A DNA stretch of 63,919 nucleotides, counting the filler, from Craspedostauros australis (lineage: Eukaryota), in NCBI GenBank assembly GCA_030167865.1. It is 7 parts of 7 records of this genome, joined end to end, with 100 filler letters (N's around TTAATTAATTAA, not from the genome) between each part and the next. Parts side by side here need not be neighbours in the genome. Positions count along the whole stretch, not along the records: positions 3,033 to 10,003 come from JALAGF010001739.1; 6 more parts are not named here. One strand, 5' to 3'. Shown here in pieces: positions 2,933 through 26,422 of this stretch (position 1 is its first letter; each line of letters starts with the position of its first letter). The notes under the pieces are model-generated. The model was not told where the DNA came from. It saw only the letters and a program-made list of their open reading frames with translations, and made no database searches. The position numbers were made by a program, and so were the translations under genes.

Positions 2933-3032
2933 NNNNNNNNNNNNNNNNNNNNNNNNNNNNNNNNNNNNNNNNNNNNTTAATTAATTAANNNNNNNNNNNN
3001 NNNNNNNNNNNNNNNNNNNNNNNNNNNNNNNN
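2933..3032. other. Artificial contig spacer (N-run with TTAATTAATTAA)
   Basis: 100 nt, N44-TTAATTAATTAA-N44; the core gives stop codons in all six frames. The same spacer recurs six times. Confidence 0.95.
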
Positions 3033-5141
3033 GAATGCAACTTCGATGCGGTGTATCTCATCTCGGATGCGGGTGGAGCGTGTCCAAAGAGAAGCGACGG
3101 CAGTCCAACGGGCGAGAGGGTGGATGAGTTCTGCGTGGGCAAAGCCACGCTTCCAACAGACTGTCCCACGTTCTCTCCAACTCCGTTCCCCACACCTCTT
3201 GCATCATCCAATCCAAGCCAGGTTCCGTCAGAGGTCCCGTCTCAGGGTCCCAGCTCAATTCCTTCCGAGGATCCCTCTCAGGCTCCGTCAAGCCTCCCGT
3301 CTGCAATGCCTTCCAGTCTGCCATCGGATCTACCATCGGAATCACCTTCAGATATTCCATCTGAGATTCCGTCCGATCTTCCGTCTGAGGTTCCGTCCGA
3401 AATGCCGTCAGATCTACCATCAGGCTTGCCGTCTAGTGGACCATCAAGCCTCCCGTCTGAGATACCGTCCGATCTGCCATCTGAGATGCCGTCGGACCTA
3501 CCATCAAGTGTTCCGTCCGATCTACCATCAAGTCTTCCTTCCGAGCTGCCGTCCGATCTCCCATCAGATCTTCCATCGAGTCAGCCTTCGGATATGCCTT
3601 CCGAGCTGCCATCAGACATTCCGTCAAGATTGCCGTCCGAGTTGCCGTCGGACTTGCCGTCAGATCTACCATCAAGTGTTCCGTCCGATCTACCATCAAG
3701 TCTTCCTTCCGAGATGCCGTCCGATCTCCCTTCAGATCTCCCATCGAGCCAGCCTTCGGGTATGCCATCTGAGCTCCCATCATATGTACCGTCAGATCTA
3801 CCATCAGACCTTCCGTCAGGATTGCCGTCCGAGCTGCCGTCGGACCTGCCTTCGGACTTACCGTCTGATGTACCATCTGATCTACCGTCCGAGCTTCCGT
3901 CCGATTTACCATCAGATCTTCCATCGAGTCAGCCTTCGGGTATGCCATCTGAGCTCCCATCAGATCTACCGTCCGAGCTTCCATCAGACTTTCCGTCAGG
4001 ATTGCCGTCGGATCTGCCGTCAGATCTACCATCAAGCTTGCCTTCGGGCTTGCCGTCAGATCTACCATCGGACCTTCCGTCAGATCTGCCGTCCGATCTG
4101 CCATCTGAGCTTCCATCCGAGCTGCCGTCCGATCTACCATCAAACTCCCCGTCTGAGATACCGTCAGACCAACCGTCCGAGCTGCCATCCGAGATCCCGT
4201 CGGACCTACCATCAAGTCTTCCTTCCGAGCTGCCGTCCGATCTACCATCAGATTTTCCGTCGAGTCAGCCTTCGGGTATGCCATCAGATCTTCCGTCAGG
4301 ATTGCCGTCTGAGACACCGTCCGATCTGCCTTCGGGCTTACCGTCAGATCTACCATCAAGCTTGCCGTCGGGTCTGCCCTCGGACCTGCCCTCGGACCTG
4401 CCATCTGATCTACCATCAGGTCTCCCATCTCGGATGCCGTCGGAAGTTCCATCAGATTTACCGTCAGACCAACCATCTGGTCTGCCGTCCCATCTGCCGT
4501 CCAGTTTACCATCATTCCTACCATCCATGACGCCGTCAGATCTTCCATCCGATTTTCCATCCATATCACCGTCCGGTATTCCTTCTCAACTTCCATCCGA
4601 TGCCCCATCTGGTCTACCGTCTGTTTCTAGCCTTCCGTCCGATATGCCATCATCAATGCCAACGCGAATAGTTATGTTGAAGGTTGGATGTCTTTCAACG
4701 CCCGGAGATGTCAATTCAACATTCAATGAAGTTCCAGGAATGGTCACTTGTGGTGCTTCTGAAGGTTTGTGTGCAGATTTTGTCACTGCAGTTGAGGCCT
4801 TGGATCCCAAACAGAGTCTATTGGTCAGGAGCATCATTGGGTGCAATGGTGCTTCACCTCCTGGAGCCAATACACCCGCTGTTGCTCAGGCTTTCTTCAC
4901 ATCCACTTCCAACTATCGAGCCTTGCACCGGGCTGTATTCAAAGCTCTCGCCAGCAACCGCTTGGTGTTCGCAGGCAGCGCAAGCGAGGTAAGGGCGGCT
5001 TGCAATGGGAGATGCTGCGTCGGAACCTATTCTTGTGTCACCAATCCACCGAATGAAATTCTTTACGCGGAGGAAGGGGCATGCATTGGGAACTTTGCTT
5101 GCCCAATCGTGTTCCCAAGGGGATATCTCCATAAGCGGTAA
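3033..5141 (+). CDS. 5'-truncated extracellular/cell-surface protein with long P-S-x-x tetrapeptide stalk and Cys-rich flanking domains
   Basis: Open from the contig edge (ECNFDAVYL...). Cys-containing segment, about 120 PS(D/E/S/G)(L/M/V) units, then a Cys-rich C-terminal region (CNGRCCVGTYSC...GACIGNFAC). PSxx stalks are common in diatom secreted proteins. Confidence 0.75.
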   Translation, partial: ECNFDAVYLISDAGGACPKRSDGSPTGERVDEFCVGKATLPTDCPTFSPTPFPTPLASSNPSQVPSEVPSQGPSSIPSEDPSQAPSSLPSAMPSSLPSDLPSESPSDIPSEIPSDLPSEVPSEMPSDLPSGLPSSGPSSLPSEIPSDLPSEMPSDLPSSVPSDLPSSLPSELPSDLPSDLPSSQPSDMPSELPSDIPSRLPSELPSDLPSDLPSSVPSDLPSSLPSEMPSDLPSDLPSSQPSGMPSELPSYVPSDLPSDLPSGLPSELPSDLPSDLPSDVPSDLPSELPSDLPSDLPSSQPSGMPSELPSDLPSELPSDFPSGLPSDLPSDLPSSLPSGLPSDLPSDLPSDLPSDLPSELPSELPSDLPSNSPSEIPSDQPSELPSEIPSDLPSSLPSELPSDLPSDFPSSQPSGMPSDLPSGLPSETPSDLPSGLPSDLPSSLPSGLPSDLPSDLPSDLPSGLPSRMPSEVPSDLPSDQPSGLPSHLPSSLPSFLPSMTPSDLPSDFPSISPSGIPSQLPSDAPSGLPSVSSLPSDMPSSMPTRIVMLKVGCLSTPGDVNSTFNEVPGMVTCGASEGLCADFVTAVEALDPKQSLLVRSIIGCNGASPPGANTPAVAQAFFTSTSNYRALHRAVFKALASNRLVFAGSASEVRAACNGRCCVGTYSCVTNPPNEILYAEEGACIGNFACPIVFPRGYLHKR
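3213..4661 (+). repeat. Coding 12-bp minisatellite (CCxTCxGAxCTx-like) with higher-order blocks
   Basis: 12-nt periodicity visible throughout; block CCATCAAGTGTTCCGTCCGATCTACCATCAAGTCTTCCTTCCGAG recurs at 3501 and 3669 (168 bp apart). Confidence 0.95.
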
Positions 5142-5403
5142 ATGGGTTTAGCCGTTTCAATATTTTCAATAGTAATGCTTGGAGTACTTACGGCAATAGC
5201 TGCGTTCTTGTCAGCACCGTCCGGTACTTGGATTAGTCATGGATAAATACGACGGACAGACCGTCCATGGCACTCAATGACGTTTCCAATCGAGTCCCGC
5301 GTAACCAAGCTTCGTGCTGAAGCAATAATTGAATTTGTGTAGACGTTATATTAGCGTTACACGTGTCAGTCTGTTTCCATGTCAGAGAGCACGGCTGGCG
5401 TGC

Positions 5404-5525
5404 TTCAGCTTGATTCAGAATCTGGCTCGGATTCAGACTTTCAGAACGGGTTCAGACTATCAGAACGGATTCAGAATCGAGCCAGAACTTCAGATCTTCA
5501 GAATTTTTCCATTCTGATTCTGAAT
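5404..5525. repeat. Cluster of short (T)TCAGA motifs, direct then inverted
   Basis: About 8 TCAGA copies at irregular spacing in 5413-5502, followed by inverted TCTGA copies at about 5513-5523. Confidence 0.6.
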
Positions 5526-5797
5526 CGAGAGTGTCCCTCCGAGTGATCCCTGTGGGGGCTTTGTCGCAGAGACACACACGTTTCCTTCTGTCTGTTGGCT
5601 TGTCCGGGCGTATGATGCCCAATCGCATTGTTCACCCATGCAGATACACGAGTGCTCTACTGTACACAAACACAAACACAGAGAGAGTAACAGCCAAAAT
5701 ACTGGGTGCGACATCAACAACATGACCACAAGTAGAAACATCTTGGCGCCAGAAAAGATATTGTTGACAATGTGACAATGACGGCTAGTATGGTAAT

Positions 5798-6367
5798 CTA
5801 CTCAGTATTCTGTTCTTGGTTGACTGCGCGTGCTGCGCTGAGGAGTTGTTCGTGCATCGCCTTCCTATTCTCCTCCTCGATTTTGCGTCGCTGTAACCAG
5901 TACGTCGTTGCCATCTTGCTTCGCTTGAGTTGATAAATGTGATCGCGAAGTTGCTTCAGCGTGAACTGGTGGTACACAACATTGGACTCATAGAGATCGT
6001 TGGGCTTCTTGGCAAGGTGCAGACCCTCATCAAAGTCAGTCGCCAGCTGTGCCTCTGCATTTGATCCTTTCCATTGAGGGCGAGTGTGCGCAATTGGTGG
6101 AAGGGCCTTGAATCGTTCGAAAGCCTGGGCATCAGCTTGTGCACGTTGCTTTTGTTCATCGCATGCCTTGCGAAGAGTTCGAAGATTGGCACGGAAGTTG
6201 ACATAGTTGATTTGCTTGTATTCGACTCGCAGTTCATAGACAGCACGAGGTTTCATTAATAGAGCCCAAACATAATGGCTGTTGTCTTGTTGGCTGTTGA
6301 TAGCTTTGGGCAGAGGCTTGATTGACAAGCAGTCCAAACGAGAGTCTTCTGTTCCACAAGTAGTCAA
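5798..6367 (-). CDS. Hypothetical protein with an internally duplicated P-x2-(V/L)Y-x4-Y-x6-(F/L)R motif; start uncertain
   Basis: 189-aa ORF; 'PRAVYELRVEYKQINYVNFRANLRTL' aligns with 'PNDLYESNVVYHQFTLKQLRDHIYQL'; W-x2-S-x-A-x3-L-x2-D precedes the second copy. Starts at TTG in the ORF track. Confidence 0.55.
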   Translation of the reverse strand: MTTCGTEDSRLDCLSIKPLPKAINSQQDNSHYVWALLMKPRAVYELRVEYKQINYVNFRANLRTLRKACDEQKQRAQADAQAFERFKALPPIAHTRPQWKGSNAEAQLATDFDEGLHLAKKPNDLYESNVVYHQFTLKQLRDHIYQLKRSKMATTYWLQRRKIEEENRKAMHEQLLSAARAVNQEQNTE

Positions 6368-6412
6368 TTGAGAATACTGGTAGATGGTGAAGAAATGTGC
6401 GGATTATGAGAT

Positions 6413-6783
6413 TAGTGCTATAGTTCTTCCCTGCAGGGAGGGTCTCCTGTGATGTCCTGAGTGACAGTGTGTATGGGCTGTGTAGCCTGAGTACCGTGGG
6501 TCAAGATCCCTTGGCTGTGTTCCATGAGAGACAAGGGGCGATGATGTGCGTTGCTGGGGCACTGTTTCCCTGTGTCGGCGTTTTGGCGATGGTGGGTGTC
6601 AGTGGCTCGGTTATTGGAACCCTTCTGGTTCCTTGACACAGGTTCCAAAGATCTGCTTCAATGTTCTGGATCTGTCCCCAAATGTGGGGGCCAGTGAAGT
6701 ATTCTTCCGATCTACTCGAATGCTGACGAGTCGGGCGATTCGTAGTCTCTCTCTCTAAGGTGGGTACTAGTTTAGCTCTATTA
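6413..6783 (-). repeat. Putative 3' LTR (about 371 bp; TAATAG...TAGCACTA)
   Basis: Begins immediately after the PPT. The far boundary is inferred from TAGCACTA, which also marks the inferred LTR end of the family B element at 62724-62731. Confidence 0.55.
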
Positions 6784-6797
6784 CTCCCCTTCATCTC
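6784..6797 (-). other. Polypurine tract (GAGATGAAGGGGAG)
   Basis: Minus-strand purine-rich run ending in AAGGGGAG, about 85-100 nt after the last ORF of the element. Confidence 0.7.
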
Positions 6798-7247
6798 ACG
6801 TTGAAACGTGAGTTGACTGAAAGCAAGAAAGCTAACCATAGTGTGGTTCGTTCCGCCGCCCAAGATGGCAGCGAGCGGGCTTCATTCGGACTGTTCGTTG
6901 TCGTCGTCATAGCCGCAGCCTTGGTGGCGGTTGGTGGACATGTGTTCCAATGCCTTGTTCAGCAAGGAGGTGATGCTGACCTGTTGGATGTGGTTGATGT
7001 GATCAAGTCCTCCGCGAAAAAGGACTTCGGCGAGAGCTTGGATGGCCGGGATTGTCCTGTTGTCGGTTTGAAGGACAGCCCTGATCTGAGCTGTGGGGTC
7101 GGGAGGCATCTGGAAGATGGATGGTTGCCCCATCGTTGGTCCTTGGTTGCTGGACATGATGTAGCCGGACCAAAGACGTCGGGGAGACAGATATGCGATC
7201 ATTGGTCAGGGCTCCATCCATGCCTTCTTTCTCACGTTGCTGATCTC

Positions 7248-10001
7248 CTATGTATCAGGAGTCGATGGTAGAGGAGGATCCAAAATGTGGGATTCGCGAG
7301 TGCTGATGCTCGCGCACTCGTCGTTGTTCGCAGGTGCCGGGTATGCGGTTGCTACCAGTACGTCATCGTTCATTGGTGCCTCCGGCAATGTTGGGACCTG
7401 TGGTCGTCCATCTTGGACAATGGGTGGCACCGGTACTGTAGCCATGATGGGTCCCTCCGCGGTCATGGTGGGTCCCTTTCCGGTGTTGATTGTCCCACTA
7501 GTGGTCTTCTTGGTGGACCTGGCTTTGACGATCTCCTTGACTCCCAAGTATCCCGAGGAAATGGTGGATTCCTCGGATTCATCGAAGATCCCCTTTCTCT
7601 TGGGGCGGTTGCTTCGCTTGCTGTTGGCTCCAGAGCTGGATCGTCGCGACGCTTGGGTTCGCTTGGTCGACTTGTCTTCTGGTCGGTAGATGGACCCGGA
7701 ATCATCACTATTGCCTGGTTCTGGGACCGACGCGCTGTCCACGGAATGGTCGGTTGGGATTACGGGCTTTGGTCGAATTTTGTCTGTGTATCCTTGTCCA
7801 TCTCGTGTGGCTGTCAGGATTTTGGACGCTGATGAGGGTCGTGAGGATCGCCTAACGGGGGGTCTGGGATGGCTGGTTACTGCTCCGCTTGCGATCTCCG
7901 CCTCCACGTCAATCACTTCTTCGGAGTCTTTCGATTCCTGATCTTCATCGTGGTATGCCTCTGGTTCAGATTCCTGATGGCTGGCTTCTTCTGTGGTCAT
8001 CTTCTTATCGAAGTATCCATCAGGGATCTCATCCAAGAACCTGCTCTCTGGTGTCTCTCCCACTTCGAGACTGGGTCTGGTGTCTTCGAGGGATGGTATT
8101 CCGTCGACCATATCATCCTCGTCGGTGGGGGGAATGGGCTCGTCCGCGAGTGCTCTCTTCTCTCGTGAGCGGTTGGCGGCGAGGGTGTCGCTTTGCTTTC
8201 GGACTTCTCGTGCCTTCTTTGCCCGTGCGAGGATGATTGGGATCCGGTTCTTCCTTACTTTGAAGAAGTGGCATATGGACGGTTTCCGAATGGTCGCGCG
8301 GAACTCGTCGGGTGGTTCAGCCCATACGCCGTCTTCATTGGAGTAGAAGCACTGTCCATCGGCTATGGCGATGCTGAGGACCTCGTTGGCTTGGAGGTCG
8401 TTGTCCATATATTTGGAGAGGGTGAGAGGGTAGATGGATTGTTTCTCTGCGTAGGTAACGAGGCCGGTTGGTGCCTTATTGTTCCCTTTTGTGCAGTAGA
8501 TTCGGACTCTGCGGCCACTGTACCCAACGACGATTCCTTGGAAGGTTCCCTTCTTTCCTGCAGGATATAGCACCCTGGATTCGGGGACGGGGCAGTGGTT
8601 GCCATCGTAGAATGGGGTGCGCTTTGGGAACGTCATGTTGGGTGCCCTTGTCCGGAATGGGGTGAGGTTGTGTCCAGGATCTCGATTATGGCGGCTCCGT
8701 TTTTTAGGGGAAGGCATGTTCATGTTGCGGAATGCAAAAGCGGGTGCGGTCGCGTTCCGTGCCAGGTCTTCCTGGAGTTCAGCAATCAGCATGTCACACC
8801 TGTATGTTTTGTGCTCAGGTGTGACGAAAGCCCGAGATGTCAGGCCCGTGTGGAAGGAAGTTTCGCAGGTACCTTCTTTAATAGCTGGCATGATGGCTCC
8901 AGGTGGCGGTTTCCGGAACTTGGTCGATGTGGCGACGTGTGATTGGTTGGTTGGCATGATGGGCCCTGTCTCCAGCATGTCTCTTGGGTAGTAGAGGACT
9001 TCGCTTCCACATGATGCCGCGGAGGGATTGATGCTTGAGAGTGTGCTGAATTCGTCGGTGAGGGCTGATGGTGGTGTGTCACCACGTCGGATCAGGAAAT
9101 TGTCGGTAGGCACGTGGTTTTGGTTCGTGGCATGGGTGTCAGTCATGTCGCATGTGACACTGGAATTTCGCGTCTGTTGGCAGTTGGGCGGGGCCGGTGT
9201 GCTCTTGGTGCGTTTGATGGGTCTGGGTGGTTTCCTTTGTGCCGTTTTGAGGGGGTTCGGTTCTTGTTGGGTTCTGGTTAGCCGAAGGGTTTTCGATGTC
9301 GGGCTGTATTTCATGGAGGTCTGTTGATACCTCGCCATGTTCATGCTCATAGTGTGTTCTTCCTTTGGCGGTGGTGGTCCTCGCGTTTCCGTGGCCATTA
9401 GATCAGGATCGTTGTCTGCTCTGGTTGTCCTGCTCTGTGTTATAGCCTGTGATATGGCTTCGCTGTGGTATCCGGACTCATGGATTGAGTTCCGGAATAT
9501 CGTTCTCGACGTGATGTGGTGGAATGGTGTTTTGGAAAGAGGTTTGGTTAGTATGTCTGCGATGTTGTCAACTGATGCAATGTGGGCAAACACGATGATT
9601 CCAGCGGCAATGCATTCCCGGATTTGATGGAAAGCCAATGAGCAGTGTTTCTTCTTCAGTGTCGAGGATGGGACCGTAGTGTTGAGTACCACCGCTTTGT
9701 TGTCTCCGAGCATGATTGCGGGTCCGTCGATGGGGACTCCGAGGTCTCTCAGCATGTAGCGCAGACCTGTGACCGCCTCGGTAGCTATNCTGGCNGCTAC
9801 CAATTCGGATCNGTAGGTGGATGTCTCCACTGTGTTCTGTCGCTTGCAGATGGTCTTGACGATGGTGTTGTTGATCAATAGTACCACGCCCGTCATGGAC
9901 TTCCGTGTGACCTGGTCATGGCCATGGTCGGCGTCCACGTAACACGTGATTTGGATCGGTTTCCCTTTTGGTGTTGGTACTGATACGGGGGTGACTTCTG
10001 C
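7248..10001 (-). CDS. Copia Pol C-terminus (RNase H) continuing in frame into an approximately 750-aa extension of unknown function
   Basis: No stop between RNase H (ends about 9490) and the TAG at 7248-7250; only isolated N bases. Confidence 0.75.
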   Translation of the reverse strand, partial: AEVTPVSVPTPKGKPIQITCYVDADHGHDQVTRKSMTGVVLLINNTIVKTICKRQNTVETSTYXSELVXAXIATEAVTGLRYMLRDLGVPIDGPAIMLGDNKAVVLNTTVPSSTLKKKHCSLAFHQIRECIAAGIIVFAHIASVDNIADILTKPLSKTPFHHITSRTIFRNSIHESGYHSEAISQAITQSRTTRADNDPDLMATETRGPPPPKEEHTMSMNMARYQQTSMKYSPTSKTLRLTRTQQEPNPLKTAQRKPPRPIKRTKSTPAPPNCQQTRNSSVTCDMTDTHATNQNHVPTDNFLIRRGDTPPSALTDEFSTLSSINPSAASCGSEVLYYPRDMLETGPIMPTNQSHVATSTKFRKPPPGAIMPAIKEGTCETSFHTGLTSRAFVTPEHKTYRCDMLIAELQEDLARNATAPAFAFRNMNMPSPKKRSRHNRDPGHNLTPFRTRAPNMTFPKRTPFYDGNHCPVPESRVLYPAGKKGTFQGIVVGYSGRRVRIYCTKGNNKAPTGLVTYAEKQSIYPLTLSKYMDNDLQANEVLSIAIADGQCFYSNEDGVWAEPPDEFRATIRKPSICHFFKVRKNRIPIILARAKKAREVRKQSDTLAANRSREKRALADEPIPPTDEDDMVDGIPSLEDTRPSLEVGETPESRFLDEIPDGYFDKKMTTEEASHQESEPEAYHDEDQESKDSEEVIDVEAEIASGAVTSHPRPPVRRSSRPSSASKILTATRDGQGYTDKIRPKPVIPTDHSVDSASVPEPGNSDDSGSIYRPEDKSTKRTQASRRSSSGANSKRSNRPKRKGIFDESEESTISSGYLGVKEIVKARSTKKTTSGTINTGKGPTMTAEGPIMATVPVPPIVQDGRPQVPTLPEAPMNDDVLVATAYPAPANNDECASISTRESHILDPPLPSTPDT

Positions 10002-10003
10002 TG

Positions 10004-10103
10004 NNNNNNNNNNNNNNNNNNNNNNNNNNNNNNNNNNNNNNNNNNNNTTAATTAATTAANNNNNNNNNNNNNNNNNNNNNNNNNNNNNNNNNNNNNNNNN
10101 NNN
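10004..10103. other. Artificial contig spacer
   Basis: N-run with TTAATTAATTAA. Confidence 0.95.
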
Positions 10104-10615
10104 GGTTCTTTGGGTTTCATCGAAACGAATTTCTGCATGATCTCGGCCTTGTCCTCGGCCTTCGTTGTGGCCGCTCCGGACTTGACCGCGCCGAATGCGG
10201 ATGTTGGCTCCGTTTTGTCGTCGGGGGCTTGGAATCCGTCAAGCAGTTCGTAGAGGAGCTCCGCCTGCTCGACGTCCATCTCGGAAGTCTCCGTGAGGAC
10301 CTCAACGTCTTCGAAACTCGCGAATTCTCCCTCGACGGACTCATCTGTTTCGTCAGCGATGGTTGATCTGTCGCCGAGAGGGGTATTTGCTTGGTCAAGG
10401 AGGGAACTGTAGAAATCCATATCCTCGTCGGCAGGCACACCATTGGGTTCCGTGGTGGGCTCTTCGAGCAGCCCCTTGCTATCCATCAACGGAGCGATGT
10501 TGACCTTGCGCATAGCTGCGGCACGCGGGATGACAGGCCTTGCCATCTGAAATGCGGAGCTCGGGCATGCCCAGAGCAATCCGGCCACGGCGGCAGAAAT
10601 GATGTGGATTCTCAT
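10104..10615 (-). CDS. 5' part of a plastid-targeted paralogue of the neighbouring lipoxygenase (truncated by gap)
   Basis: MRIHIISAAVAGLLWACPSSAFQMARPVIPRAAAMRKVNIAPLM versus LOX MRFQIVSAAAASLLWACPSAAFQMVKPAISRAAAPRNVNVAPLM; second block EDVEVLTETSEMDVEQAELL versus KDLEISSDASSMDAGDAALM. No catalytic domain visible before the gap. Confidence 0.65.
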
Positions 10616-13051
10616 GCTGACGGAGGCTTGTTGATTATGTTGTTGATCGTAATTGTGATTGTGATTGTGTGTGGTTGACGGATTGGTTTGATTCGATCTG
10701 GCCGAGACGTGATGTGATGTGATGTGACGGCGATCGAGTTTCAAAGTTTATGAGCTGGACGATTGTAACGATGGCATGTCGACTTTTGCCGTTTGGATTT
10801 TCGAAAAGCGCTGTGAGAAACAAATGAAGTGGCCGCAGCTGCTGCGGTCATTGCAGTATTGCCTCTGGCTGCTGTCGCCGCCATCGTTGCAGCTGTTTCT
10901 TCCTCCCCTTGCCGGTACTGATGACGGCGGTCATGGTTGCTGTGGCGTTGTTGTTTCTCGTTCTTCGTTGTGCGACTGTCCCTTTGGGTGTGCAGTGATG
11001 TCGTGGGCCACCTCGATCTTCTTCTCCTTTTCCTTGTGAAGTTATCAGTGTTGTTCGTCATGTGTTGTTGATGTTGAATCTTTGTGGGTATGGTGAGGTG
11101 GGCGAAGTGAGGTGAGAACGGAATAGTGCATGGAGGATTTGCACATCAAGATACCGTGTTCTCCCATCATTCCCACCAGGTTTCTTTCTGTGCAAGTCGA
11201 AGCCAGATTGTTCCCCTTTGCCACGCCACGATTGGTTGGATCAATAAATCTGAAGGTCGTATCCACAATTGGACGCCAAGAGCACGGATTAAAACACTCG
11301 TCCCCTTCGCTATACTTGTTCTCACACTTTGCTTCGGATTTATTGGATCACCACCGTGTGAAGCTCGGTCACAGGAACAGGAATCAAAGATCCCACTTGC
11401 GGAGGCGAAGAAGAACAATGTCATTCGTTGTCGGAAGAGCACGATCCCTGCACCCGAACATGCACACTCGTGCCTCCGGAAGACGATGGGGCAGTTGGGA
11501 TCGCTGTCGATGACATTGAATGATTTCACCTCACCCCAACGATGTTGGGAAGCTCCACAACGTTCTTCCTGCCTGGCTGATGGGATGCATGTGATGATGA
11601 TGAGATCTGTGGGAACGAGATCAAATGAAGTTTGGCTAATAGTGTTGTATCCCAGAGGTTTCGAAAGAGATTTATTGCAGAGGGTGAAACTGAGAAGAGT
11701 CATGTGGATGAGATGGTGGCAATGCAACAACCTGTCCGCTGGGATCGAAGATGATTGGATGTGCTTGATCCAGTGATAGCATCGAATGAGTTGGTGATCC
11801 TGCAGCGATCTCGCCGATTGCTCTTCTCGCGATCTCTCCCCGCCTGTGGATGATCTGGCCTGGCGAGGCTCAGAGAGACCAGTCATTGCTATTGCTGTTG
11901 CTGTTGCTACGAGCACTATCTGGTGCAGCTTTAAGATTCTCGGTCCTCCCCACGAGAAGACTTCTGTATCAAGCGGGGCGGGGGCAGTTCAGATCACTGA
12001 AGCGCCGACTTTGAAGTACGCGAGTCGGTACCGATATCATTGCAGAACAACATCACATCGACTTCGACGAACAAATCGATTCGAATCGGCTAGAGCAAAA
12101 GCGATGCTTGAAGGGGTGGCGGAAGCGAGACGCAGTACCATCCGCAAATCCTCGCATCCAGTATGTTCCTCTGTTTTGCTTGGCGTCATGTTCATGCTGC
12201 CCTTTCTCGATCGACACTTGGTCTGGAGGTGTCACAAGAAGGGGCACCCTCGCGAAAAGGTGAGAAGCATCAACGTTCACTTGTTTACCCGGAGCTTGTC
12301 CCATCCATCCTGTGAGCAGTATCGCAGAGTCCCACTGAATGATGCTGTCCTTGTCGCCAAGCTCCACAAGACCATGTTTCATAAAGTCGAAACAAAGATC
12401 CGGAGAGTCCTGCTGTGTGTGTGTGAGAGAGAGACCAGCGAGTGGATGAGCTTGATGTGACATGATCGCTTGTGATCCTCGACATTGATGGAGAACCCTT
12501 CTGGGTGCGTCGAATGACAAAAAGGATTCCATCGTTCAGATTTATTGATCCCGCCAACTCAGTCGACAAGTTGGCGAATCTTTCGTTATTGTCCGCCACA
12601 GAACACTCAGTATGGGACTGATTCCAGAAATCGGCTGGCATTTGGGTAATCCTCCATGCATTTTCCACCTTTGCCGATTCACGGAAGGATCCACCATCAA
12701 CAGCACTTCACCAATGACATCGACAACTGCACAACCAAAAAGGAGAAGACGGAGAAGGAGATCATGAAGGAGCCAGAAACGCTTGCACTGGTTCAATGAC
12801 CGAAACAACAACACCATCCCCACCACAGCTCCTTGCGATCCTGCCGCGGCTTCACTTGTCGTGGCCATGAAACCAAACCACGACAGTTGACCATCTCAGC
12901 AGCACCCTCATCTCATCTCATAAAATCGAACGAGACCAAACATCACTCCGCTCGCTTCACAAGCCACACAAGCCACACAATAGACCAACACACAAACACA
13001 CAAGCACATCACAAGACAACAACAACAACAACAACAACAAGCTCTGACAGA

Positions 13052-16000
13052 ATGAGATTCCAAATCGTTTCTGCAGCTGCGGCCAGTCTGCTGTGGGCAT
13101 GCCCAAGCGCCGCCTTTCAGATGGTCAAGCCAGCCATCTCACGTGCGGCAGCCCCACGCAACGTCAACGTCGCTCCGTTGATGGAAACCAAGCCGTTCTT
13201 CGAAGACACCATCCCAGACACTGTGGATGCCAACCTCAATGGCAACCTCACCTTGGATGCCGCTCCGATCGAAAATGGCGGCGTTCCTCCGACCACCGAT
13301 ACCGCCGTCATCAATGAGACGGAGGAGGGAACCACGGAGGTGACCATCACGACCGTCCAAAACAACGATCCCAAAGACTTGGAGATCTCCAGCGACGCCA
13401 GCTCCATGGACGCTGGGGACGCGGCTCTCATGAGCGAGTTCTTCCAAACCGGCGGAACGACTACTGTCAAGGTGGCGCGCGAGCCATCCAGGCTGCAGAA
13501 GGCCGTGGCCGAGGGCGGCCCACTGTCGCTCGTCCTCCTCCCAATCGCTGTCGCCGAGGTTTCGGCACAAGCAATGGCCGATTACATCATCCAATCATGG
13601 AAGGCCACAGTGCCTTCCGGCGTCCGCGTCGTCCTCCGCCTTGCCGCGAAGGACTTCCGTCGCGGTGCCGTCGATGCGGAATGGTTCAAGCTGATCTTCG
13701 ACTTCGGCCTCTACGGAACGGTGCTCAATCTCAAGGGCGCAGGTCTTGGCACCCAGCTCAACACTTCCTCCGTCATCAACGTCGTTGCCGAGAGTCTCCC
13801 AAAGGCCCTCGTGCCCAACGCCACCTACGAGTATGACACCTATCCCGTCCACGCAGAGGTACGTTCTTCCGTCTGGGATTGCGCGTTCACGCCCATCATT
13901 TCGTTTTATTACCCAAGAGAGGAGCGGCCGTCGGCATGGCGCTTTCTTTCGCTCATTTCCGAGCTCACATGCGCTCGCATTCACATTCACATTCATTGTA
14001 TTCCCTCTCCAATCCGACATCTCTCTCACCCATTGCAATGAACAATCCACAATGCTCTACATTCCTCTGTTCCGTATGTGGTACACCACAGTACCCCCAC
14101 AAGAGCCTCAAGGGCATGATGAAAATGGTCAAAGGTGTGCCACACCTCGAATACTGGTTTTCTTTCAAGAAGATCTTCAGAGCGCTGACGTTTACCTTGA
14201 AGGGTTCTGCGGGGCTGGCCGTCAATCCGCTCACGATCAACGATCTCCCCTCGCAGGAGAATTACGAGAAGATCTTCAAGGCCGAGGGACCGTTCGGACT
14301 GGAATTCAAGAATCCGTTCCTCCCGTTCCCACAGCAAAGCTACGATAATTGGAAGGAAGATCAGGAGTTCTCCCGCCAATTCTTGAACGGCGTCAACCCA
14401 GTCATGATCGAAGTCGTCAAGGACAGCAGCAAGCTCACACCCGAGCTGCTCGAATTCTACGACAAGGAGGATATCACCAACATCACTGCTCTTGCTGAGG
14501 CCAACAGGCTCTTTTACGTCGACTACATCGGCCTGGACGACCTCGAGAAGAACCCTCACCAGGCATACCCTGAAGCGTACAACAACCTCAGCACCACCGG
14601 CGATATGGGCATCTTGGAGCGCGTTGGAAAGGAACCGCGCTACTTCAAGGCCCCGATGATCCTCTTCCGCCAAACCCAGGACCTCAAGAATCTCGAAGTC
14701 ATGGCCATTCAGCTCGATCGTGGCGCTGGTTCCAAGGTCTACACAGTCGGCAACACCAATGAAAGGGAGTGGCTCTTCGCCAAGGCCACCGTCGCAAGCG
14801 CGGATTCTCAGTATCACGAGGTGAGCATGGAGCAATGTGTTTTTGCGCACGAGCATGATGTTCGGCGCATCCACGCGACCAACCACGACCACGGTATAGC
14901 GTGTGTGTTTGTGTGTGTGGATGCCGACGCTGTGTATCTGTGTACTGGGATTCGTGCATCTATACGCGCTTAGTTCACGCCCGCATGAATTGATCCTTGG
15001 AGTGATTATTCGCTGCCTCCTGTACTCATTCTCGTTCATCTTTTCCGCGTGTCCTTTCTGCTACTGCTGATTCTGCAATGTCCATCTTGCTTCATTCGAT
15101 ACACTCCTCCTGCTGTTGCTGCAATTGTCCAAATTCGCGTGTTCAACAGTGGGTGAGCCATTTGGGAAGGACCCACCTGACCATGGAGCCACACATCGTC
15201 GCCATCCACAACACGCTCCGCAAGCACAACCACAAGGTCTACCCGTTCGTGAGACCGATGTGCCGCGACACCCTCCTCCTCAACTTCGCCGCTCGATACA
15301 CCCTGGGCTCTTTCGGACCAAGCAGCTTTGGTGATTACATGACATCTGTCGGAACCGGCCAGTACATGCAGCTCATCTTGAAGTACTGGGAGACCTACGA
15401 TTTCTTCAAGTCCTCCGCCTTCGACGAAGAGATGGAAGGACGTGGATTCACAGACGATGTGAAGCTTGACAACTACCGCTACCGCAACGACGGCAAGGAG
15501 CTTTGGGAGGCATACGGCATCTTCGCGACGCAGTTCGTTGATGAGTGCTACGAGAGCGATCAGGAAATCGCGGACGACGACGTGCTGCAGCTGTGGGCCT
15601 ATGAGACGAGCCATGAAAGCCGTGCGGCAATCAAGGGCTTCCCCAAAAGGTTCACGTCCAAGGCACAGCTTACCAAGACCCTGCAGACCTTGTTCTGGAT
15701 CTGCAGTGGATTCCACGCCGCCATCAACTTCCCGCAATACGATGTAAGCGCAGCAGGCTTGAAAACGATGGCGTACGATGACACGATTCCGTACCAACAC
15801 AACAGCGAGAGGAATTCCTCTTTGCATGCACATTTGCTCGGTTGCATCTTTACAGTGATAAACTCGCAACTCACACTCCCCCTCCCTTTTCCAACTCGTG
15901 CTTTCCATCCAACCAATCAACCAATTACGCCTCCACACAAACCACCCCTCCACACAACCCTCAGTTCTACGCATACCCACCCAACAAGCCAATCGGGTTC

Positions 16001-20725: not shown

Positions 20726-22552
20726 TCAACAATGGACTTCTTCGGAATCATCGTCAAACTGGATCTCGATGGACTGCTGCAATGCGTCATCCTCGTCGTA
20801 CAACTGCGAGGATTCGACGTTGTGCGGTTCGCAGAACCGAACGTTGCTGCGCGTGCGGTTCGTGCGGCGCGATGGCTTGCGATCGGACGATGTCATGGAG
20901 CTGATGGTGGGCGTGATGATGGTGTTCGTGATCGTTTCGAAGGTGGACGACGATCGGCCGACGCCGCCTTCATGGTATAATGACAGCGACCGGTTGCTCG
21001 TGCCGAAATCGAAGATGAAGACGCTGGACGACGTCTTGTCGCTGTTGCTGTCGTGGTTGCTGTCGTGGTTGCTGGTGCGGCTCGAGACGCGGCGCAGGCG
21101 GTGCAAGGAGGTTTCGAAGAAGCGGATGAGGATGATGTTGGTCTCGGCCTTGCCTGAGGCATTCTGCCAGTTCCACAGGAAGGCGTCGATCTTGAAGCCC
21201 TGCTTCGACAGCGTCTTGTTGACCATGCGGCACCAACCGTCGTTGAGCATCGTGACCCACGCCTTCTTTGTGGCGTCGTCATCGCGCAGCATGCCGCAGC
21301 AGCACATCTGCGGTGGCAACGTCTCGCAGGCCTCGAGGAAGGAGGTTCTGCAATCGAAGCCGTTCCACATCTCCATCGCATCGAGGAAGGTGTCGTCCGA
21401 TCCCTTGACGCAGTGCGTGACGAAGTCCTCCTCAAGGTTGAGGTAAGGCTCCGAGATGATCTCTAGGGCGCCCACGACGCCGCGCGTGCGTTGCCACTTG
21501 TAGTTGCAATTCTGACGGTTGGCGAATCCCACGTAGCGTTTGATGAAGGACAGCTTGCGTCCCATTGCGAAGGTCTCTCGCAATGACTTTGTCTGTTGCC
21601 GTTGTTGAGGTTGTCGTTGCGGTGATGATTGCCTCGGGCCTTCCGGAGGTTGCTGTCGTGGTTGCGTCTGCCTCCGCCTTTGTTGCCTGCGCGCGCTGCG
21701 AGTCGAGGCGCCAGCAGTGTCGCTCGTCCCAGCTGCTAGCGAGGGCGCATTGCTGCTGCGGCCGCTACGTGCGCTATGGTTGCTACGGGTGCTGTTCACG
21801 GTGGTGCTGTGGGTGCTGTGCACCGAACGGTTGCTCACGATGCCATCACCCGCATTCATGACGGCACCGACAGCAGCGATTGCGGCAGCATTGTCCATCG
21901 GGGTTGTCGTGGGAGTCTCCGCAGTAGCGTCAGTGGTGACGGCTGTGCCACCTGTGGTGTTGGTGGAAGTACACATGTCCTTTGCTGGTTGCTTGCGTGA
22001 CTTTGTCTGCGTCTGCGTTTGCGTCTGCGATTGCTGTTGATCTTGGACTTGGACAGCTGACCTCCGTCCTTCTTCACCATCATCCTCTGTTGCCCTCACC
22101 CCGCCGGTGCTTGTCGAGGTCAGACGAACACCATCGTGTGGGAGTTGCGTAGAATCAGGCCCTTCGGAATTCATTGACAAATGTGTTTGAAGTTCATGGT
22201 GGACTTCGCGTTGGTGGTTTTTTCTTGGTGACGGTTGGTGTGCGTCATGCCTTTGTCGCTGATCTTCTTGCTGTTGTTGTTGCTGTTGTTGTTGTTGCCG
22301 CAGTCGTTGGTGCTGTTGCGGTCGTTGCTGAGAGTCCAGAGACTCATGCCCGTGTCCATGATGATGATGGCCGTCGGTCGAGATCACCTCGATGCCTGCA
22401 TCTTCGTCGCTGCTGGGCATGATCTCCTCCGAGTCAATGCTCCACGTAGACGAGGAAGAACCGATTGCCTGCCTCTGTTGACTGTGACCACTGCTGTTGT
22501 TGCTGCTTTCGGGAACGGGTTCGATCACCCACGCTCTATCGTTGTCAATCAT
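20726..22552 (-). CDS. Hypothetical protein: Q/S/T-rich disordered N-terminus plus compact domain (…LPPQMCCCG…GFKIDAFLWNW…)
   Basis: Long ORF with coding-like composition; ATG at 22552 (MIDNDRAW) chosen by context. Confidence 0.65.
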   Translation of the reverse strand: MIDNDRAWVIEPVPESSNNSSGHSQQRQAIGSSSSTWSIDSEEIMPSSDEDAGIEVISTDGHHHHGHGHESLDSQQRPQQHQRLRQQQQQQQQQQEDQRQRHDAHQPSPRKNHQREVHHELQTHLSMNSEGPDSTQLPHDGVRLTSTSTGGVRATEDDGEEGRRSAVQVQDQQQSQTQTQTQTKSRKQPAKDMCTSTNTTGGTAVTTDATAETPTTTPMDNAAAIAAVGAVMNAGDGIVSNRSVHSTHSTTVNSTRSNHSARSGRSSNAPSLAAGTSDTAGASTRSARRQQRRRQTQPRQQPPEGPRQSSPQRQPQQRQQTKSLRETFAMGRKLSFIKRYVGFANRQNCNYKWQRTRGVVGALEIISEPYLNLEEDFVTHCVKGSDDTFLDAMEMWNGFDCRTSFLEACETLPPQMCCCGMLRDDDATKKAWVTMLNDGWCRMVNKTLSKQGFKIDAFLWNWQNASGKAETNIILIRFFETSLHRLRRVSSRTSNHDSNHDSNSDKTSSSVFIFDFGTSNRSLSLYHEGGVGRSSSTFETITNTIITPTISSMTSSDRKPSRRTNRTRSNVRFCEPHNVESSQLYDEDDALQQSIEIQFDDDSEEVHC

Positions 22553-24437
22553 GATGTGCCAGCCAACACCCTCCGCCAGCGTTCCGCTTCTTAGTTGTTG
22601 CGGTTGTTGTTGCGTGTGCGTGTATGTGAGTGAGTGAGTTATGGCCGTTCCTTGTGTGCAGCACCCGCAGTGTGGAAATGGTGCTCTGGCCGATGCTGCC
22701 CTCCGCTCTGGCTGACTCAATGTGTGGTTCTTCGCCTTCTTGTCGACTGTCTCTCTGTTGCTGTGTGTTGCTTTGTGTTGCTGTGTGTTGTTGCAACTGT
22801 CCTGCTGCTTTGTGCCAGTATGGAGCAGAGTGTGGAACAGAGTATGCAGCAGAGTATGGAATGCCCTGTGGTACGATGAATTCGGAGAGCTACGCTTGGT
22901 GCTCACAGAGAGGAGGTGTTTGCAGACAATGCAACACTTCTTCTGCAGCACTCAATGAGTATTCTTCACTTTGGTAGTAATAGAATGCTGCAATCGAAAG
23001 ACCACCTGCGAGTCGAGATCCAAAGAAACACTAAACACAAACCAAAGACGCTCTGGAGACGACCCCGTCTGTTTATGGTGTGTTGAGTAGCTCACACGAG
23101 TACCAACAGGCACAAGGAGCACGTAGATCGTGCTCGTGTTAACAGGTATTAGTGGATGTGCCAGACAGCAGATAGCCGGAGAGATGGCGATCACCCGCAA
23201 CAGGAACAAGAACTGCGCAGACCGCGAACGCCTAAATCGAGTCAGAACCAAACACACACCACGCCACGACAAGAAACGCCAAACGCACTGTGACACGGAA
23301 ACGCCGCAGCCAAGGTATCTACGACTGTTTGGACCGTGTTGCGTTATCCACATTCCGCCCTCCACGCAATCGCGTGTCTGCAGACTGCAACAGCTGGCGC
23401 CCTGGTCGTTGTTTGGTTGTGTTTGGAGCCTGTTGTCTCTGTTTTTCCTCCTCTTTCTGGCACAACGATTTTCTCTTCTCCCAATGACTCCGCGTCATTG
23501 TCAATGCGATGTCACTCTGGGAAGTTGTTTATCTTTCCCCTAAGCCGATTTGATTATGGTTTGGATTTTTTCTCTTCTCACGTGTTTCTTCAAATAAAGT
23601 GACAATCTTTATCGTTCCTTGTCCAAGATCACTCACGAACATAATGGGTTTTCGCAGGACGAGGCGCCACGCTGCGAGCTGCCATCAGTCGCACAAAACC
23701 ATGGCTTTGCACCACATCGAACAGGTTCACGTGGCAGACAGCTGCTTTCGATTGTGGAATCGCCGCGCTGCGAGCTGATCGTGTTCGTGGAGCAGAAGAC
23801 AGTGTAGCGCATCTTGTGCGGGATCTCCCCATCTCTCCTCTCCTTGTTGAGCTGTTGTCTGATCGCGTGGTAGCACTCCATGTCCATCTCCATCGCGGCA
23901 CGCACATTCACAAATCCACAACGAAGCAGATGATAGCTGGTTGAAAAAGCGCCCGCCTCTTCTCTTGAATGGTCAGCATGAATCAAACCGCCGATGCTTA
24001 TGCGCCACCATGAGCGACAACACTCTCCCCTTGCTGTGTAAAGAGAGTAAGTAGTATGAGTATTGCGCTCTGCCGATGCTGTCCTATTCTGCTGCGAGTG
24101 CTCTATTGGAACCTTCGTGTTCCTCCACAAAGCGATTCTCCAGGGGAACCGCGGTAAAGACCATATATTGGTCGGATTTTGCTTTGCTCACGCTTGAGGC
24201 GTGTTGTACGGTTTTGGGATCTGTCGAGTCAACCACTAATGGTATTACTAGAGCACGCCTTTCCCGTGTTGACTTGACGTTGCGCTTATTTACGTACGTG
24301 CTCGACATGTCGTGCACGGTGTGCCAATGCCAATGATGTCCGCTTTGCGCTCGTTCCACCCCTGTCGTGTCTGCTCCAAGACATGCCAATTTCCAGACCC
24401 ACGACATCACATCGCTGTCTTCTTGTCAATATGGCCC

Positions 24438-24537
24438 NNNNNNNNNNNNNNNNNNNNNNNNNNNNNNNNNNNNNNNNNNNNTTAATTAATTAANNNNNNN
24501 NNNNNNNNNNNNNNNNNNNNNNNNNNNNNNNNNNNNN
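24438..24537. other. Artificial contig spacer
   Basis: N-run with TTAATTAATTAA. Confidence 0.95.
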
Positions 24538-26422
24538 TGTCGCTCTAGTCTTGTCATGGTTCAGTTCGATGTTGCAGCTGAGGTAGTCTCCGAGTCCGCG
24601 CTCGATTGTCACCTTGAATTTACTGCCTTGGATATCCTTCAGGAATGTCTCCAGTGCTTTGGAGTCTCTGCAACAGAAGCAATCGTCCACATAGATGGCC
24701 ACGATCATGCTTCCTTCGTTCGTCTTCCTGTAGAACAGGCACGGGTCTGCTGCGCTCTGTTCGAANNNNNNNNNNNNNNNNNNNNNNNNNNNNNNNNNNN
24801 NNNNNNNNNNNNNNNNNNNNNNNNNNNNNNNNNNNNNNNNNNNNNNNNNNNNNNNNNNNNNNNNNNNNNNNNNNNNNNNNNNNNNNCAGTTCATGTAGAT
24901 CTCCTCGTCGAGGTCTCCATGTAGGAATGCCGTTACGACATCGACGAGTGCGCAGTCCATCTTCTTGATCAGCATGATCGCCATCATGACTTGGTAGGTC
25001 ACGTCATGGATGGCAGGTGAGTAATACTCTTGGAAGTCTACTCCTGCAACTTGTGAATAGCCACATGCAACGAGCCTCGCTCGATGTGTGCCGTCACGCT
25101 TCAGCTTGAAGACCCATTTGCACTTGCAGCATCTGCAGCCGCGTGGAATGGTATCTCGCTTGATCTTGTTGTACACCTTGCGTGTATCCATGGAGTCGAA
25201 CTCCTTCTTGATGGCTGCTCGATATCCCTTCTGATGGATGGGATCTGGGTGGTTGAAGGCTCCATCGAATGTCGTTGGTTCGATGTGCTTCTCTGGTTCC
25301 TTGTTCTCGTCCTGCATCGACAGTCCAATGTCGATCGCTGGTGTCTCGGTGATGATTGCGTTCATCCCGTATACTCCTGTTGTGCTATGGTGAGTGATCT
25401 CGATTTCTCCTTCATCCATGATTTCTTCATCATCTGTAGTTTCGTTGTTGGAATCATCGATCATCTCGTCGCTGAGTTCGTCACTCGCCTCGGCGGATGA
25501 TGGATCGCTCTCATAGCCTTCTTCCTTTCGACCTCGTTCGTTGAAGTCTGCAAGCTCACGCAGAGCTCTAGGAATATTCTTTCCTGTAGTTGACTTGGGA
25601 TTAGTTTCTCCCTTCCTGCCTCGTGCTTCGTGACGTCGGATCCTCTCCTTTCTAGCTATGTCACGCTTGTTTGGCTTGCTCGGTGGAGATCTGGATGGTG
25701 TACCATGTGTAGACCTCGCTGGTGTGTTCGGGGGAGTGACGCCTGTGTCATCGTCGGCTTCGTCGCTGGATGGTGTGATCTCGTCATCCTCATGATTGGA
25801 TTCGCTCCGATCTTCCTCGTCGTTATGGACCAGTTGTGTTACTGCTCCGTCGTCCTCATTATCCTCATCGTCGCTGTCCGATAGGATGTAGTACCTGTTG
25901 CTGTCAGTGAAAGATACTCTCTTTGCTTCCGATGTTTGACGCGTTGCCGTCCTTGGCGTTGCTCCCTTCTGTCCGATGGTTGTGAAGCCGTCTGCGTCCG
26001 TTGTTCCTGCTTCATTGGACATGTTTGGTGCTGGTGCCCAGCCACGGAACTGTCCGTATGATTGGTTGAGCCACTTGATGTCGCGTGAACAGATGAGTGA
26101 CTTGGTCGATGGTCTGTACATGTTGTAGACCCCTGATGCNTGTTGGTGTGCATATCCGATGAACACCATCTCTTCTCCTCTGTTCTTGAGTTTGGCGGTG
26201 ATCCCGCCGTAGGTAGTCTTCACAACATCCACCTCTCCAAACGTGCGGAGTGCATCCGCATATGGTGGATCGCTTCCGAAGAATTGTCGATGTGGTGACT
26301 CCTTCTGGTTCTTCGCTACGGTGATATTGGCGATGGCAGTGGCAGTGCTAGCAGCTGCTGCCCACAGGCCATGCCTATACTCTTCGTCGAGTTGTGCTCC
26401 GTTGAGCATGGAGCGGATCTTG
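24538..26422 (-). mobile_element. Ty1/copia (family B) internal fragment: integrase C-terminus, linker, reverse transcriptase
   Basis: 'GLWAAA', 'MVFIGYA', 'CKWVFKLK..RARLVACGYSQ', 'DVVTAFLHG', 'YVDD'; collinear with 57611-59410. Confidence 0.93.

What the first reader, a model, noticed from the sequence alone, without database searches (positions are those of the whole stretch)
7248..9490. Copia Pol runs about 750 codons past RNase H into a cargo region
Seen: the frame carrying the RNase H motifs stays open for about 2.2 kb beyond 'ADILTKPL...FRN' and lies inside the element, upstream of the PPT and LTR. Known: Ty1/copia Pol normally stops within tens of residues of RNase H, and extra 3' ORFs (e.g. 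Sirevirus env-like) are usually separated by a stop or spacer. Inference: this lineage encodes either a Pol-fused accessory protein or a large in-frame extra ORF with its own ATG (several Mets near 9400-9310). No signal peptide or TM segment is evident, so it is not a classical env.
Basis: partly seen in the sequence, partly recalled or inferred. Interest (0 to 1): 0.75.

Follow-up and report, generated by a model that had tools for sequence, protein, structure and literature searches.

The report
Copia element with large in-frame cargo
The tail end of a diatom-type copia retrotransposon carries an extra 2.2 kb protein-coding stretch of unknown origin, read straight on from its RNase H and lying inside the element, which its relatives lack or replace with other small extra genes.

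Summary
On the minus strand the frame of a copia RNase H (10001-9489) stays open for 746 more codons (9488-7251, TAG at 7250-7248). The other two frames hold 22 and 28 stops, and 1000 shuffles give at most 298 open codons.

Only the 3' end of the element is present. The window is a chain of contigs, and this contig ends inside RNase H.

The tail lies inside the element. A junction motif typical of this clade (polypurine tract, PPT, plus LTR start; AAGGGGAGTA..AGA) is found 20-950 nt after RNase H in 53 of 80 related loci. In the window it occurs once, at 6794-6778, which is 2.7 kb after RNase H.

Relatives stop much sooner: median 15-16 residues after RNase H, in 77 loci with an in-frame stop and in 41 proteins.

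The tail has no Pfam match, no sequence relative and no transmembrane segment, and gave no confident fold.

Relatives do use the same interval for other cargo. Eleven of 80 carry a KOW-motif ORF, and one family holds a decayed in-frame region of about 630 codons.

No sister copy was reachable, so fusion versus a separate ORF, and conservation, stay open. I rate it a new variant of a known kind, LTR elements with additional ORFs.

The parts
10004..10103 (.). Contig-join linker (N44-TTAATTAATTAA-N44). The element is cut here by the end of the contig.
   Evidence: the same linker occurs at five other places in the window
9489..10001 (-). C-terminal RNase H domain of a Ty1/copia (CoDi-like) Pol, 171 codons. 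The residues at the invariant D, E, D, D columns are present.
   Evidence: 50-64% identity to the C-termini of 37 of the 41 polyproteins found (1606-4585 aa searched), all 41 carrying Pfam RVT_2; alignment A1 has invariant D23/D25, E66, D100 and D149
7251..9488 (-). 746-codon extension in the Pol frame (cargo ORF). It is P/S/T-rich (29%) with alternating basic and acidic blocks. Its most order-prone part is about residues 300-430 (about 8590-8200).
7248..7250 (-). TAG stop that ends the long ORF. A second stop in the same frame lies at 7208-7206.
6885..7205 (-). 107-codon stop-to-stop segment in the same frame, with a positive coding score. It is either a small separate ORF or the former end of the cargo ORF, cut off by two stops.
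   Evidence: log-odds 0.138 in frame 0 against -0.139 and -0.269
6784..6794 (-). Polypurine tract ATGAAGGGGAG
   Evidence: The 17-mer ATGAAGGGGAGTAWTAG occurs once in the window, with 0 matches in 100 shuffles. The octamer AGGGGAGT occurs once on both strands of the window, and lies downstream of RNase H in 53 of 80 related loci. Junction consensus.
6413..6783 (-). 3' LTR. The start (TAATAGAGCTAAA) is firm. The end is tentative, placed at ...GCACTA by analogy with the CCACTA end of the L016 LTR.
   Evidence: no coding signal in any frame; an LTR pair cannot be tested because the 5' LTR is not in the contig

Best explanation
This is the 3' end of a CoDi-like Ty1/copia LTR retrotransposon. Its interval between Pol and the polypurine tract (PPT) holds an accessory coding region of about 2.7 kb, where relatives have 20-950 nt. 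In this copy the cargo is continuous with the RNase H frame. Translation of the genomic RNA would therefore give RT-RNase H with a 746-residue tail that is mostly disordered and charged.

Shown: the ORF is real coding sequence. It lies inside the element, before the PPT and 3' LTR. It is unlike anything in the collections searched. Related elements use the same interval for other, unrelated ORFs.

Inferred: the tail is made as part of Pol and then either cut off by the element's protease or kept as a tether. My guess at its role is binding of nucleic acid, chromatin or a host factor during replication or integration, because it has basic clusters (KRTK, KRSR, KKAR), acidic blocks and no membrane features.
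For: Open frame and coding statistics.

RNase H homology, with the catalytic columns intact.

PPT and LTR-start motif:
- It occurs once in the window, at 6794-6778, with 0 matches in 100 shuffles.
- The octamer AGGGGAGT lies 20-950 nt (median 263) after RNase H in 53 of 80 loci, and in 29 of the 37 loci with at least 1000 nt downstream.
- The background is 9 hits in 189,742 nt upstream.
- The window matches L035 over 21 nt at 95% and fits the consensus of 58 contexts.

The interval acts as a cargo slot in relatives:
- Eleven of 80 loci hold a KOW-motif ORF there.
- In L037/L038 that ORF follows the pol stop directly, in the pol frame.
- In L046/L048 the junction motif lies 1903 nt after RNase H. 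The pol frame has 8-9 stops in 634 codons there, against 26-29 in the other frames.

An accidental fusion is unlikely. A separate ORF would need the right frame (1 in 3) and about 30-115 stop-free spacer codons at about 3% stops per codon.
Against: - Only one partial copy is available, on a contig that ends 515 nt into RNase H, and three Ns fall in that part. The RNase H may therefore be the collapsed repeat and the tail unique to this copy.
- No homologue of the tail exists among 1.84 billion representative proteins apart from two matches to a 38-residue acidic stretch in repeat proteins. None exists in the 80 related loci either.
- Tail residues about 10-90 show no frame-0 codon advantage, as a former non-coding spacer would.
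- Among the relatives with a KOW-motif ORF, each ORF is separated from Pol by a stop or lies in another frame.
- The frame is closed by two stops 14 codons apart, followed by more coding-like sequence in the same frame. That suggests the copy has begun to decay.
- Structure prediction gave no confident fold.
Confidence: 0.55

Rival explanations
1. The cargo is a separate third ORF with its own start, at one of the Mets at tail positions 31, 47, 49, 51, 59 or 115. It would be expressed from a subgenomic or spliced RNA or by re-initiation, as the extra ORFs of relatives must be. In this copy it merely happens to be in the Pol frame, with the pol stop lost.
For: The relatives' extra ORFs lie in all three frames relative to pol: frame 0 in L037/38, frame 1 in L018, L051, L057 and L062, frame 2 in L042/43, L044/54 and L065. 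Each is closed off from pol. The frame-0 codon advantage vanishes in tail residues about 10-90 and returns from about 90. The frame starting at 9490 has a stop 17 codons after FRN, about where relatives end.
Against: It needs a coincidence of frame and of 30-115 stop-free codons, roughly 0.01-0.13. A proline-, threonine-, lysine- and arginine-rich linker would also score poorly on host codon usage without being non-coding. The L046 family shows that a long region in the pol frame occurs elsewhere in the clade.
Confidence: 0.27
2. This is a one-off chimera. Either a truncated RNase H fragment was joined to unrelated sequence by recombination, template switching or misassembly, or a host gene was captured by this copy alone. 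In that case the tail is not a feature of any transposing lineage.
For: The contig ends one read-length (515 nt) into RNase H and carries ambiguous bases only there. The tail is an orphan. In L003 a related RNase H runs in frame into a protease-like region, so chimeras at this point do occur (1 of 80).
Against: The clade-specific PPT and LTR start follow the tail at a position expected by chance about 0.13 times (0.071 per 1500 nt), and the junction fits the longer consensus. So the tail is bracketed by two parts of the same kind of element. A break between the last conserved RNase H residue and the usual stop (about 45 nt of a roughly 7 kb element) would be a further coincidence.
Confidence: 0.13
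3. The frame is open by chance, because the strand is poor in T (14.6%).
For: T-poor sequence has few stop codons. Some relatives have P/T-rich tails of 100-130 residues.
Against: There are 0 stops in frame 0 against 22 and 28 in the other frames. None of 1000 shuffles exceeds 298 open codons. Codon-position composition matches the RNase H part (C at position 3: 0.39 against 0.41; T at position 3: 0.12 against 0.09). Frame-0 log-odds are best along the tail.
Confidence: 0.02

Closest known systems
CoDi-like Ty1/copia elements of diatoms (Maumus et al. 2009, PMC2806351; Llorens et al. 2009, PMC2774666; passages read with 'find')
   Same: RNase H is 50-64% identical to the C-termini of long polyproteins (1600-2800 aa) that carry RVT_2. 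Two of the 41 also have a precomputed chromodomain hit, as Llorens et al. describe for CoDi-A integrases. The PPT and LTR junction is shared with 53 of 80 metagenome relatives.
   Different: The passages I read describe elements with gag and pol only, and no ORF after pol. Here 2.7 kb lies between RNase H and the PPT. The label 'CoDi-like' is my inference: no named CoDi sequence was aligned here.
LTR retrotransposons with additional ORFs (plant aORFs, PMC7264820; bdelloid rotifer elements, PMC5408684, search listing only; Sirevirus env-like ORFs, recalled)
   Same: An extra ORF sits between pol and the PPT and 3' LTR, and is copied along with the element.
   Different: Here it is in frame with Pol and has no stop before it. 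It has no transmembrane segment or other env-like feature and no recognisable domain.
KOW-motif ORF downstream of pol in 11 of 80 related metagenome loci
   Same: Same position (between pol and the PPT) in the same clade. In L037/L038 it is in the same frame as pol.
   Different: The window's tail does not match the profile built from these ORFs (no hit at E up to 10). hhalign gives P = 0.31 for the one alignment that looks similar by eye, SRVLYPAGKKGTFQGIVVGY. There is no Pfam KOW hit. The tail is also 3-6 times longer.
L046/L048/L052 family of related loci
   Same: A long interval after RNase H (1.9 kb) whose pol frame is strongly depleted of stops: 8-9 in 634 codons against 26-29. This points to a former long in-frame region.
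   Different: It is closed off from pol after 20 residues and interrupted by further stops. It has no sequence similarity to the window's tail (Smith-Waterman z = 1.09 against 200 shuffles) and no Pfam family.

Membership tests
Ty1/copia (CoDi-like) LTR retrotransposon | Copia-type RNase H at the C-terminus of a polyprotein that carries RVT_2 | tested here: met
   37 of the 41 relatives at 41-64% identity; invariant D, E, D, D columns kept
Ty1/copia (CoDi-like) LTR retrotransposon | Domain order PR-IN-RT-RH, with gag upstream | not testable with these tools
   The contig ends at 10003 inside RNase H, and no genome is held
Ty1/copia (CoDi-like) LTR retrotransposon | Polypurine tract directly before the 3' LTR | tested here: met
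   the clade junction AAGGGGAG|TA..AGA lies at 6794-6778
Ty1/copia (CoDi-like) LTR retrotransposon | Two matching LTRs and a target-site duplication | not testable with these tools
   The 5' half of the element is not in the window. No second copy of 5100-10003 exists in the window.
LTR retrotransposon with an additional ORF | Coding sequence between pol and the PPT and 3' LTR | tested here: met
Env-like third ORF (Sirevirus or errantivirus type) | Signal peptide and/or transmembrane anchor | tested here: not met
   maximum 19-residue hydropathy 0.79; no hydrophobic segment. No dedicated signal-peptide predictor was run.
KOW-motif post-pol ORF of related loci | Match to the profile of the 11 ORFs, or to Pfam KOW PF00467 | tested here: not met
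Chromodomain targeting module (chromovirus or CoDi-A type) | Pfam chromo domain in the extension | tested here: not met
   no family at E up to 1 except a QTMAN_N hit (E 0.067, 13.4 bits, cut-off 25)

The most novel reading that the evidence does not exclude
In CoDi-like copia elements the interval between pol and the polypurine tract is a general cargo slot that has repeatedly taken up unrelated protein genes. Examples are a KOW (Spt5/NusG-like) ORF in 11 of 80 loci, a region of about 630 codons in the L046 family, and the 746-codon tail here. In some lineages the cargo is read in the Pol frame. The window's tail would then be a functional accessory protein delivered with Pol, for example a tether to chromatin or the transcription machinery, or a counter-silencing factor, kept by a transposing lineage of this alga.
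Probability: 0.3. Interest if true: 0.65.

Novelty: new variant of a known kind. Interest (0 to 1): 0.42.

Why it matters
Copia Pol normally ends at RNase H, and accessory genes in copia elements are few. A cargo of 746 codons fused to Pol, together with a clade that places different ORFs in the same slot (one with a KOW motif, as in transcription-elongation factors), would show that diatom retrotransposons acquire and carry host-like proteins. It would also give concrete candidates for how these elements deal with host transcription or silencing. If the tail proves to be a one-off chimera, it is only an example of how retroelement ORFs run on into neighbouring sequence.

Tried and rejected
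Searches for a second copy or a relative of the tail:
- tblastn and blastn within the window found only the region itself.
- No whole genome is held for this window.
- The search for homologous proteins on the tail, longer proteins: 0 of 4348 candidates.
- The exhaustive phmmer search gave 2 hits. Both match the acidic stretch 464-502 in repeat proteins, with bias 97 and 78 bits.
- Metagenome scan with the tail: 43 pattern matches, none confirmed.
- Viral contigs with the RNase H alignment: 219 pattern matches, none confirmed.
- ESM Atlas: no usable hit.
- PDB sequences: none at E up to 1.
- Sequencing runs: none was listed and no RNA holder was listed.
- Earlier findings of this scan: nothing in three look-ups.

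Structure and domains:
- AlphaFold2 without an alignment gave mean pLDDT 36.4 for the whole tail and 42.3 for residues 288-456.
- Foldseek on the second model gave nothing at E up to 0.001, and the model is too poor for its weak rows to mean anything.
- KOW likeness of SRVLYPAGKKGTFQGIVVGY was seen by eye but is not supported.
- The tail shows no similarity to any part of the 41 relatives' polyproteins, so it is not a displaced gag or protease.
- The 107-aa ORF has no relatives in the 80 loci.

Other attempts:
- LTR pairs of relatives: the 5' LTRs lie outside the fetched loci, and the records are not held for the genome search. The 336-nt LTR of L016 was bounded at its 3' end by the L015 match; its 5' end is taken from the PPT junction.
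- Base composition does not separate host from element. A 741-codon ORF at 20729-22951 of unknown nature (no Pfam family) has a similar skew.

Full report
**What is there**

The window is not one stretch of chromosome. It is a chain of contigs joined by N44-TTAATTAATTAA-N44 linkers, at 2933-3032, 10004-10103, 24438-24537, 26423-26522, 57511-57610 and 62789-62888. The finding lies in the contig 3033-10003.

On the minus strand a frame opens at the contig edge (10001) and runs to a TAG at 7250-7248, giving 917 codons (P0001). The rest of the element (RT, integrase, protease, gag, 5' LTR) is not in the window. No second copy of 5100-10003 is present in it. Three single Ns (9789, 9795, 9812) fall in the RNase H part.

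**Is the open frame more than chance?**

The coding strand is poor in T (14.6%), which lowers the number of stops.

- The extension has 0 stops, against 22 and 28 in the other two frames of the strand.
- In 1000 shuffles the longest open stretch in any of the three frames had mean 140 and maximum 298 codons.
- Codon-position composition matches the RNase H part (C at position 3: 0.39 against 0.41; T at position 3: 0.12 against 0.09).
- With a codon table trained on ten long ORFs of the window, frame 0 scores best in all 17 windows of 100 codons.
- With 60-codon windows the advantage disappears only in tail residues about 10-90 and is clear from about 90 to the end.

The extension is coding sequence, apart from a possible linker or former spacer at its start.

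**What the RNase H belongs to**

The RNase H part finds 41 proteins among those of 1606-4585 residues, all with Pfam RVT_2. Thirty-seven are 41-64% identical. Two also carry a chromodomain hit. Such a module at the end of integrase is what Llorens et al. (PMC2774666, passages) describe for CoDi-A elements of diatoms.

I therefore call the element CoDi-like. No named CoDi sequence was compared, so this is an inferred label. That the host is a diatom I did not test.

In an alignment with eight relatives, the columns D23/D25, E66, D100 and D149 are invariant and present in the window.

**How unusual the tail is**

- In the 41 proteins the number of residues after the position matching N171 has median 16. 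The maximum is 127 among the 37 close relatives. One distant protein (31% identity) has 594.
- A scan of metagenome contigs with the RNase H alignment gave 339 confirmed relatives, of which the best 80 were kept (50-63% identity).
- In 77 of the 80 the frame stops, at a median of 15 and a maximum of 66 residues. Three run to the contig end.
- One of those three, L003, is open for 122 residues but runs into a protease-like region, so it is a chimera.
- The two sets may share elements.

None of the relatives has anything like 746 residues, and none matches the tail.

**Is the tail inside the element?**

This was the decisive test. In the related locus L016 the sequence ATGAAGGGGAG|TATTAG lies 306 nt after RNase H. 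The 3' end of its LTR could be fixed by a match to the 5' LTR of a sister copy, L015.

- The octamer AGGGGAGT lies 20-950 nt (median 263) after RNase H in 53 of 80 loci, and in 29 of the 37 loci with at least 1000 nt downstream.
- Its background is 9 hits in 189,742 nt of upstream sequence, or 0.071 per 1500 nt.
- Across 58 distinct contexts the junction reads nnGAnnnAAGGGGAGTAnnAGAnnnnAA.
- In the window the octamer occurs once on both strands, at 6790 on the minus strand, within TGAGATGAAGGGGAGTAATAGAGCTAAAC.
- The 17-mer had no match in 100 shuffles, and 21 nt are 95% identical to L035.

So the polypurine tract (PPT) and LTR start follow the tail, 2699 nt after RNase H. That is 2.8 times the longest of the 53 spacers measured within 1500 nt; the L046 family, below, has 1903 nt. 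The tail is bracketed by two parts of the same kind of element.

The LTR shows no coding signal. Its end, near 6413, is only a guess by analogy.

**Downstream of the stop**

After the TAG the same frame has stops only at 7208, 6884 and 6503, which makes 4 in 316 codons against 9 and 12 in the other frames. The 107-codon segment 7205-6885 scores as coding in that frame (0.138 against -0.139 and -0.269). The cargo ORF may therefore once have run to 6885, about 90 nt before the polypurine tract, and this copy may carry two new stops. Alternatively, a small separate ORF follows.

**What the tail is like**

- No Pfam family.
- No relative among longer proteins.
- In an exhaustive search of 1.84 billion representatives, only two matches to a 38-residue acidic stretch in repeat proteins.
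- Nothing in metagenome DNA, the ESM Atlas or PDB sequences.
- 29% proline, serine and threonine, with alternating basic and acidic blocks, three short basic clusters and no hydrophobic segment (maximum 0.79).
- AlphaFold2 without an alignment gave pLDDT 36 for the whole tail and 42 for residues 288-456, with some strands and one helix. That is too weak for a fold search to mean anything.

**The same slot in relatives**

Relatives with long spacers carry ORFs there.

- A profile built from seven of these ORFs converged on 11 of 80 loci (about eight distinct families). The best reverse-strand control hit was at E 0.03.
- Pfam KOW (PF00467) is hit in 6 of 10 of these ORFs at E 3e-5 to 0.054, once above the curated cut-off, together with weaker SPT5 KOW families.
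- These ORFs lie in all three frames relative to pol. In L037/L038 the ORF follows the pol stop directly, in the pol frame.
- In L046/L048 the junction motif lies 1903 nt after RNase H. The pol frame there has 8-9 stops in 634 codons, against 26-29 in the other frames, which suggests a decayed long in-frame region.
- That region has no likeness to the window's tail (z = 1.09) and no Pfam family.
- The window's tail does not match the KOW profile.

**Reading**

The evidence fits a retrotransposon clade in which the interval between pol and the polypurine tract takes up varied cargo. The window holds the largest and only uninterrupted example, read in the Pol frame.

Whether it is translated as part of Pol or from its own start is open. 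An accidental in-frame, stop-free junction has a chance of roughly 0.01-0.13, which favours a real fusion. Against that, the codon profile of the first 90 residues and the separate ORFs of relatives favour a former spacer.

A one-off chimera or misjoin is made unlikely by the flanking junction motif, but it cannot be excluded from one partial copy on a contig that ends 515 nt into RNase H.

**What is in print**

I found no description of an ORF after pol in diatom copia elements in three full-text searches. The passages read in PMC2806351, PMC2774666, PMC7264820 and bioRxiv 10.1101/2025.10.24.684338 do not describe one either. I did not see Additional file 1 of PMC2806351; it is listed as a TIFF image and holds the table of element structures. 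It may bear on this.

Noticed in passing
L018, L037, L038, L042, L043, L044, L051, L054, L057, L062, L065 (e.g. L037:3715-4536, L051:1426-1800): Eleven of 80 related copia loci carry an ORF of 108-274 codons (stop to stop) between pol and the polypurine tract, with a KOW motif (G-D-x-V-x-V-x-x-G-x-y-K-G-k-x-G-x-V). Pfam KOW is hit in 6 of 10 tested, once above the cut-off. I found no description of this in the papers searched.
   Followed up: partly
L046:4033-5935 and L048 (same region): A 1.9 kb interval between RNase H and the junction motif, in which the pol frame has 8-9 stops in 634 codons against 26-29 in the other frames. This looks like a decayed long in-frame cargo, unrelated in sequence to the window's tail.
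   Followed up: partly
L037:3715-4536 and L038:1742-2488: The extra ORF starts directly after the pol TAA stop, in the pol frame. That arrangement would allow stop-codon read-through.
   Followed up: no
L003:1926-2801: A related RNase H runs in frame, after about 35 residues, into a protease-like segment (DNGANVSIVGKGW...). This is a tandem or recombinant element.
   Followed up: no
window 2933-3032, 10004-10103, 24438-24537, 26423-26522, 57511-57610, 62789-62888: N44-TTAATTAATTAA-N44 linkers with stops in all six frames. The window is a concatenation of at least seven contigs, so neighbours across a linker are not neighbours in the genome.
   Followed up: yes
window 24562-25281 (-), 57626-58459 (-), 59078-59704 (-): Fragments of a different, more classical copia family (25-28% identity to P0043) begin within about 25 nt of contig edges. 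The assembly appears to break in repeats.
   Followed up: no
window 10104-10747 (-) and 12800-14038 (+): Two paralogous ORFs have near-identical N-termini (MRIHIISAAVAGLLWACPSSAFQM... and MRFQIVSAAAASLLWACPSAAFQM...). The motif resembles the ASAF-type plastid-targeting signal of diatoms; this is recalled, not tested. The ORFs lie on different contigs.
   Followed up: no
window 3033-5138 (+): An ORF made largely of about a hundred LPSDLPSE-like repeats (a proline- and serine-rich, mucin-like protein).
   Followed up: no
window 5801-6403 (-): A 201-codon ORF with coding signal (0.084 in frame 0) begins just past the tentative LTR end. It has no Pfam family above the cut-off. Probably the neighbouring host gene.
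   Followed up: partly
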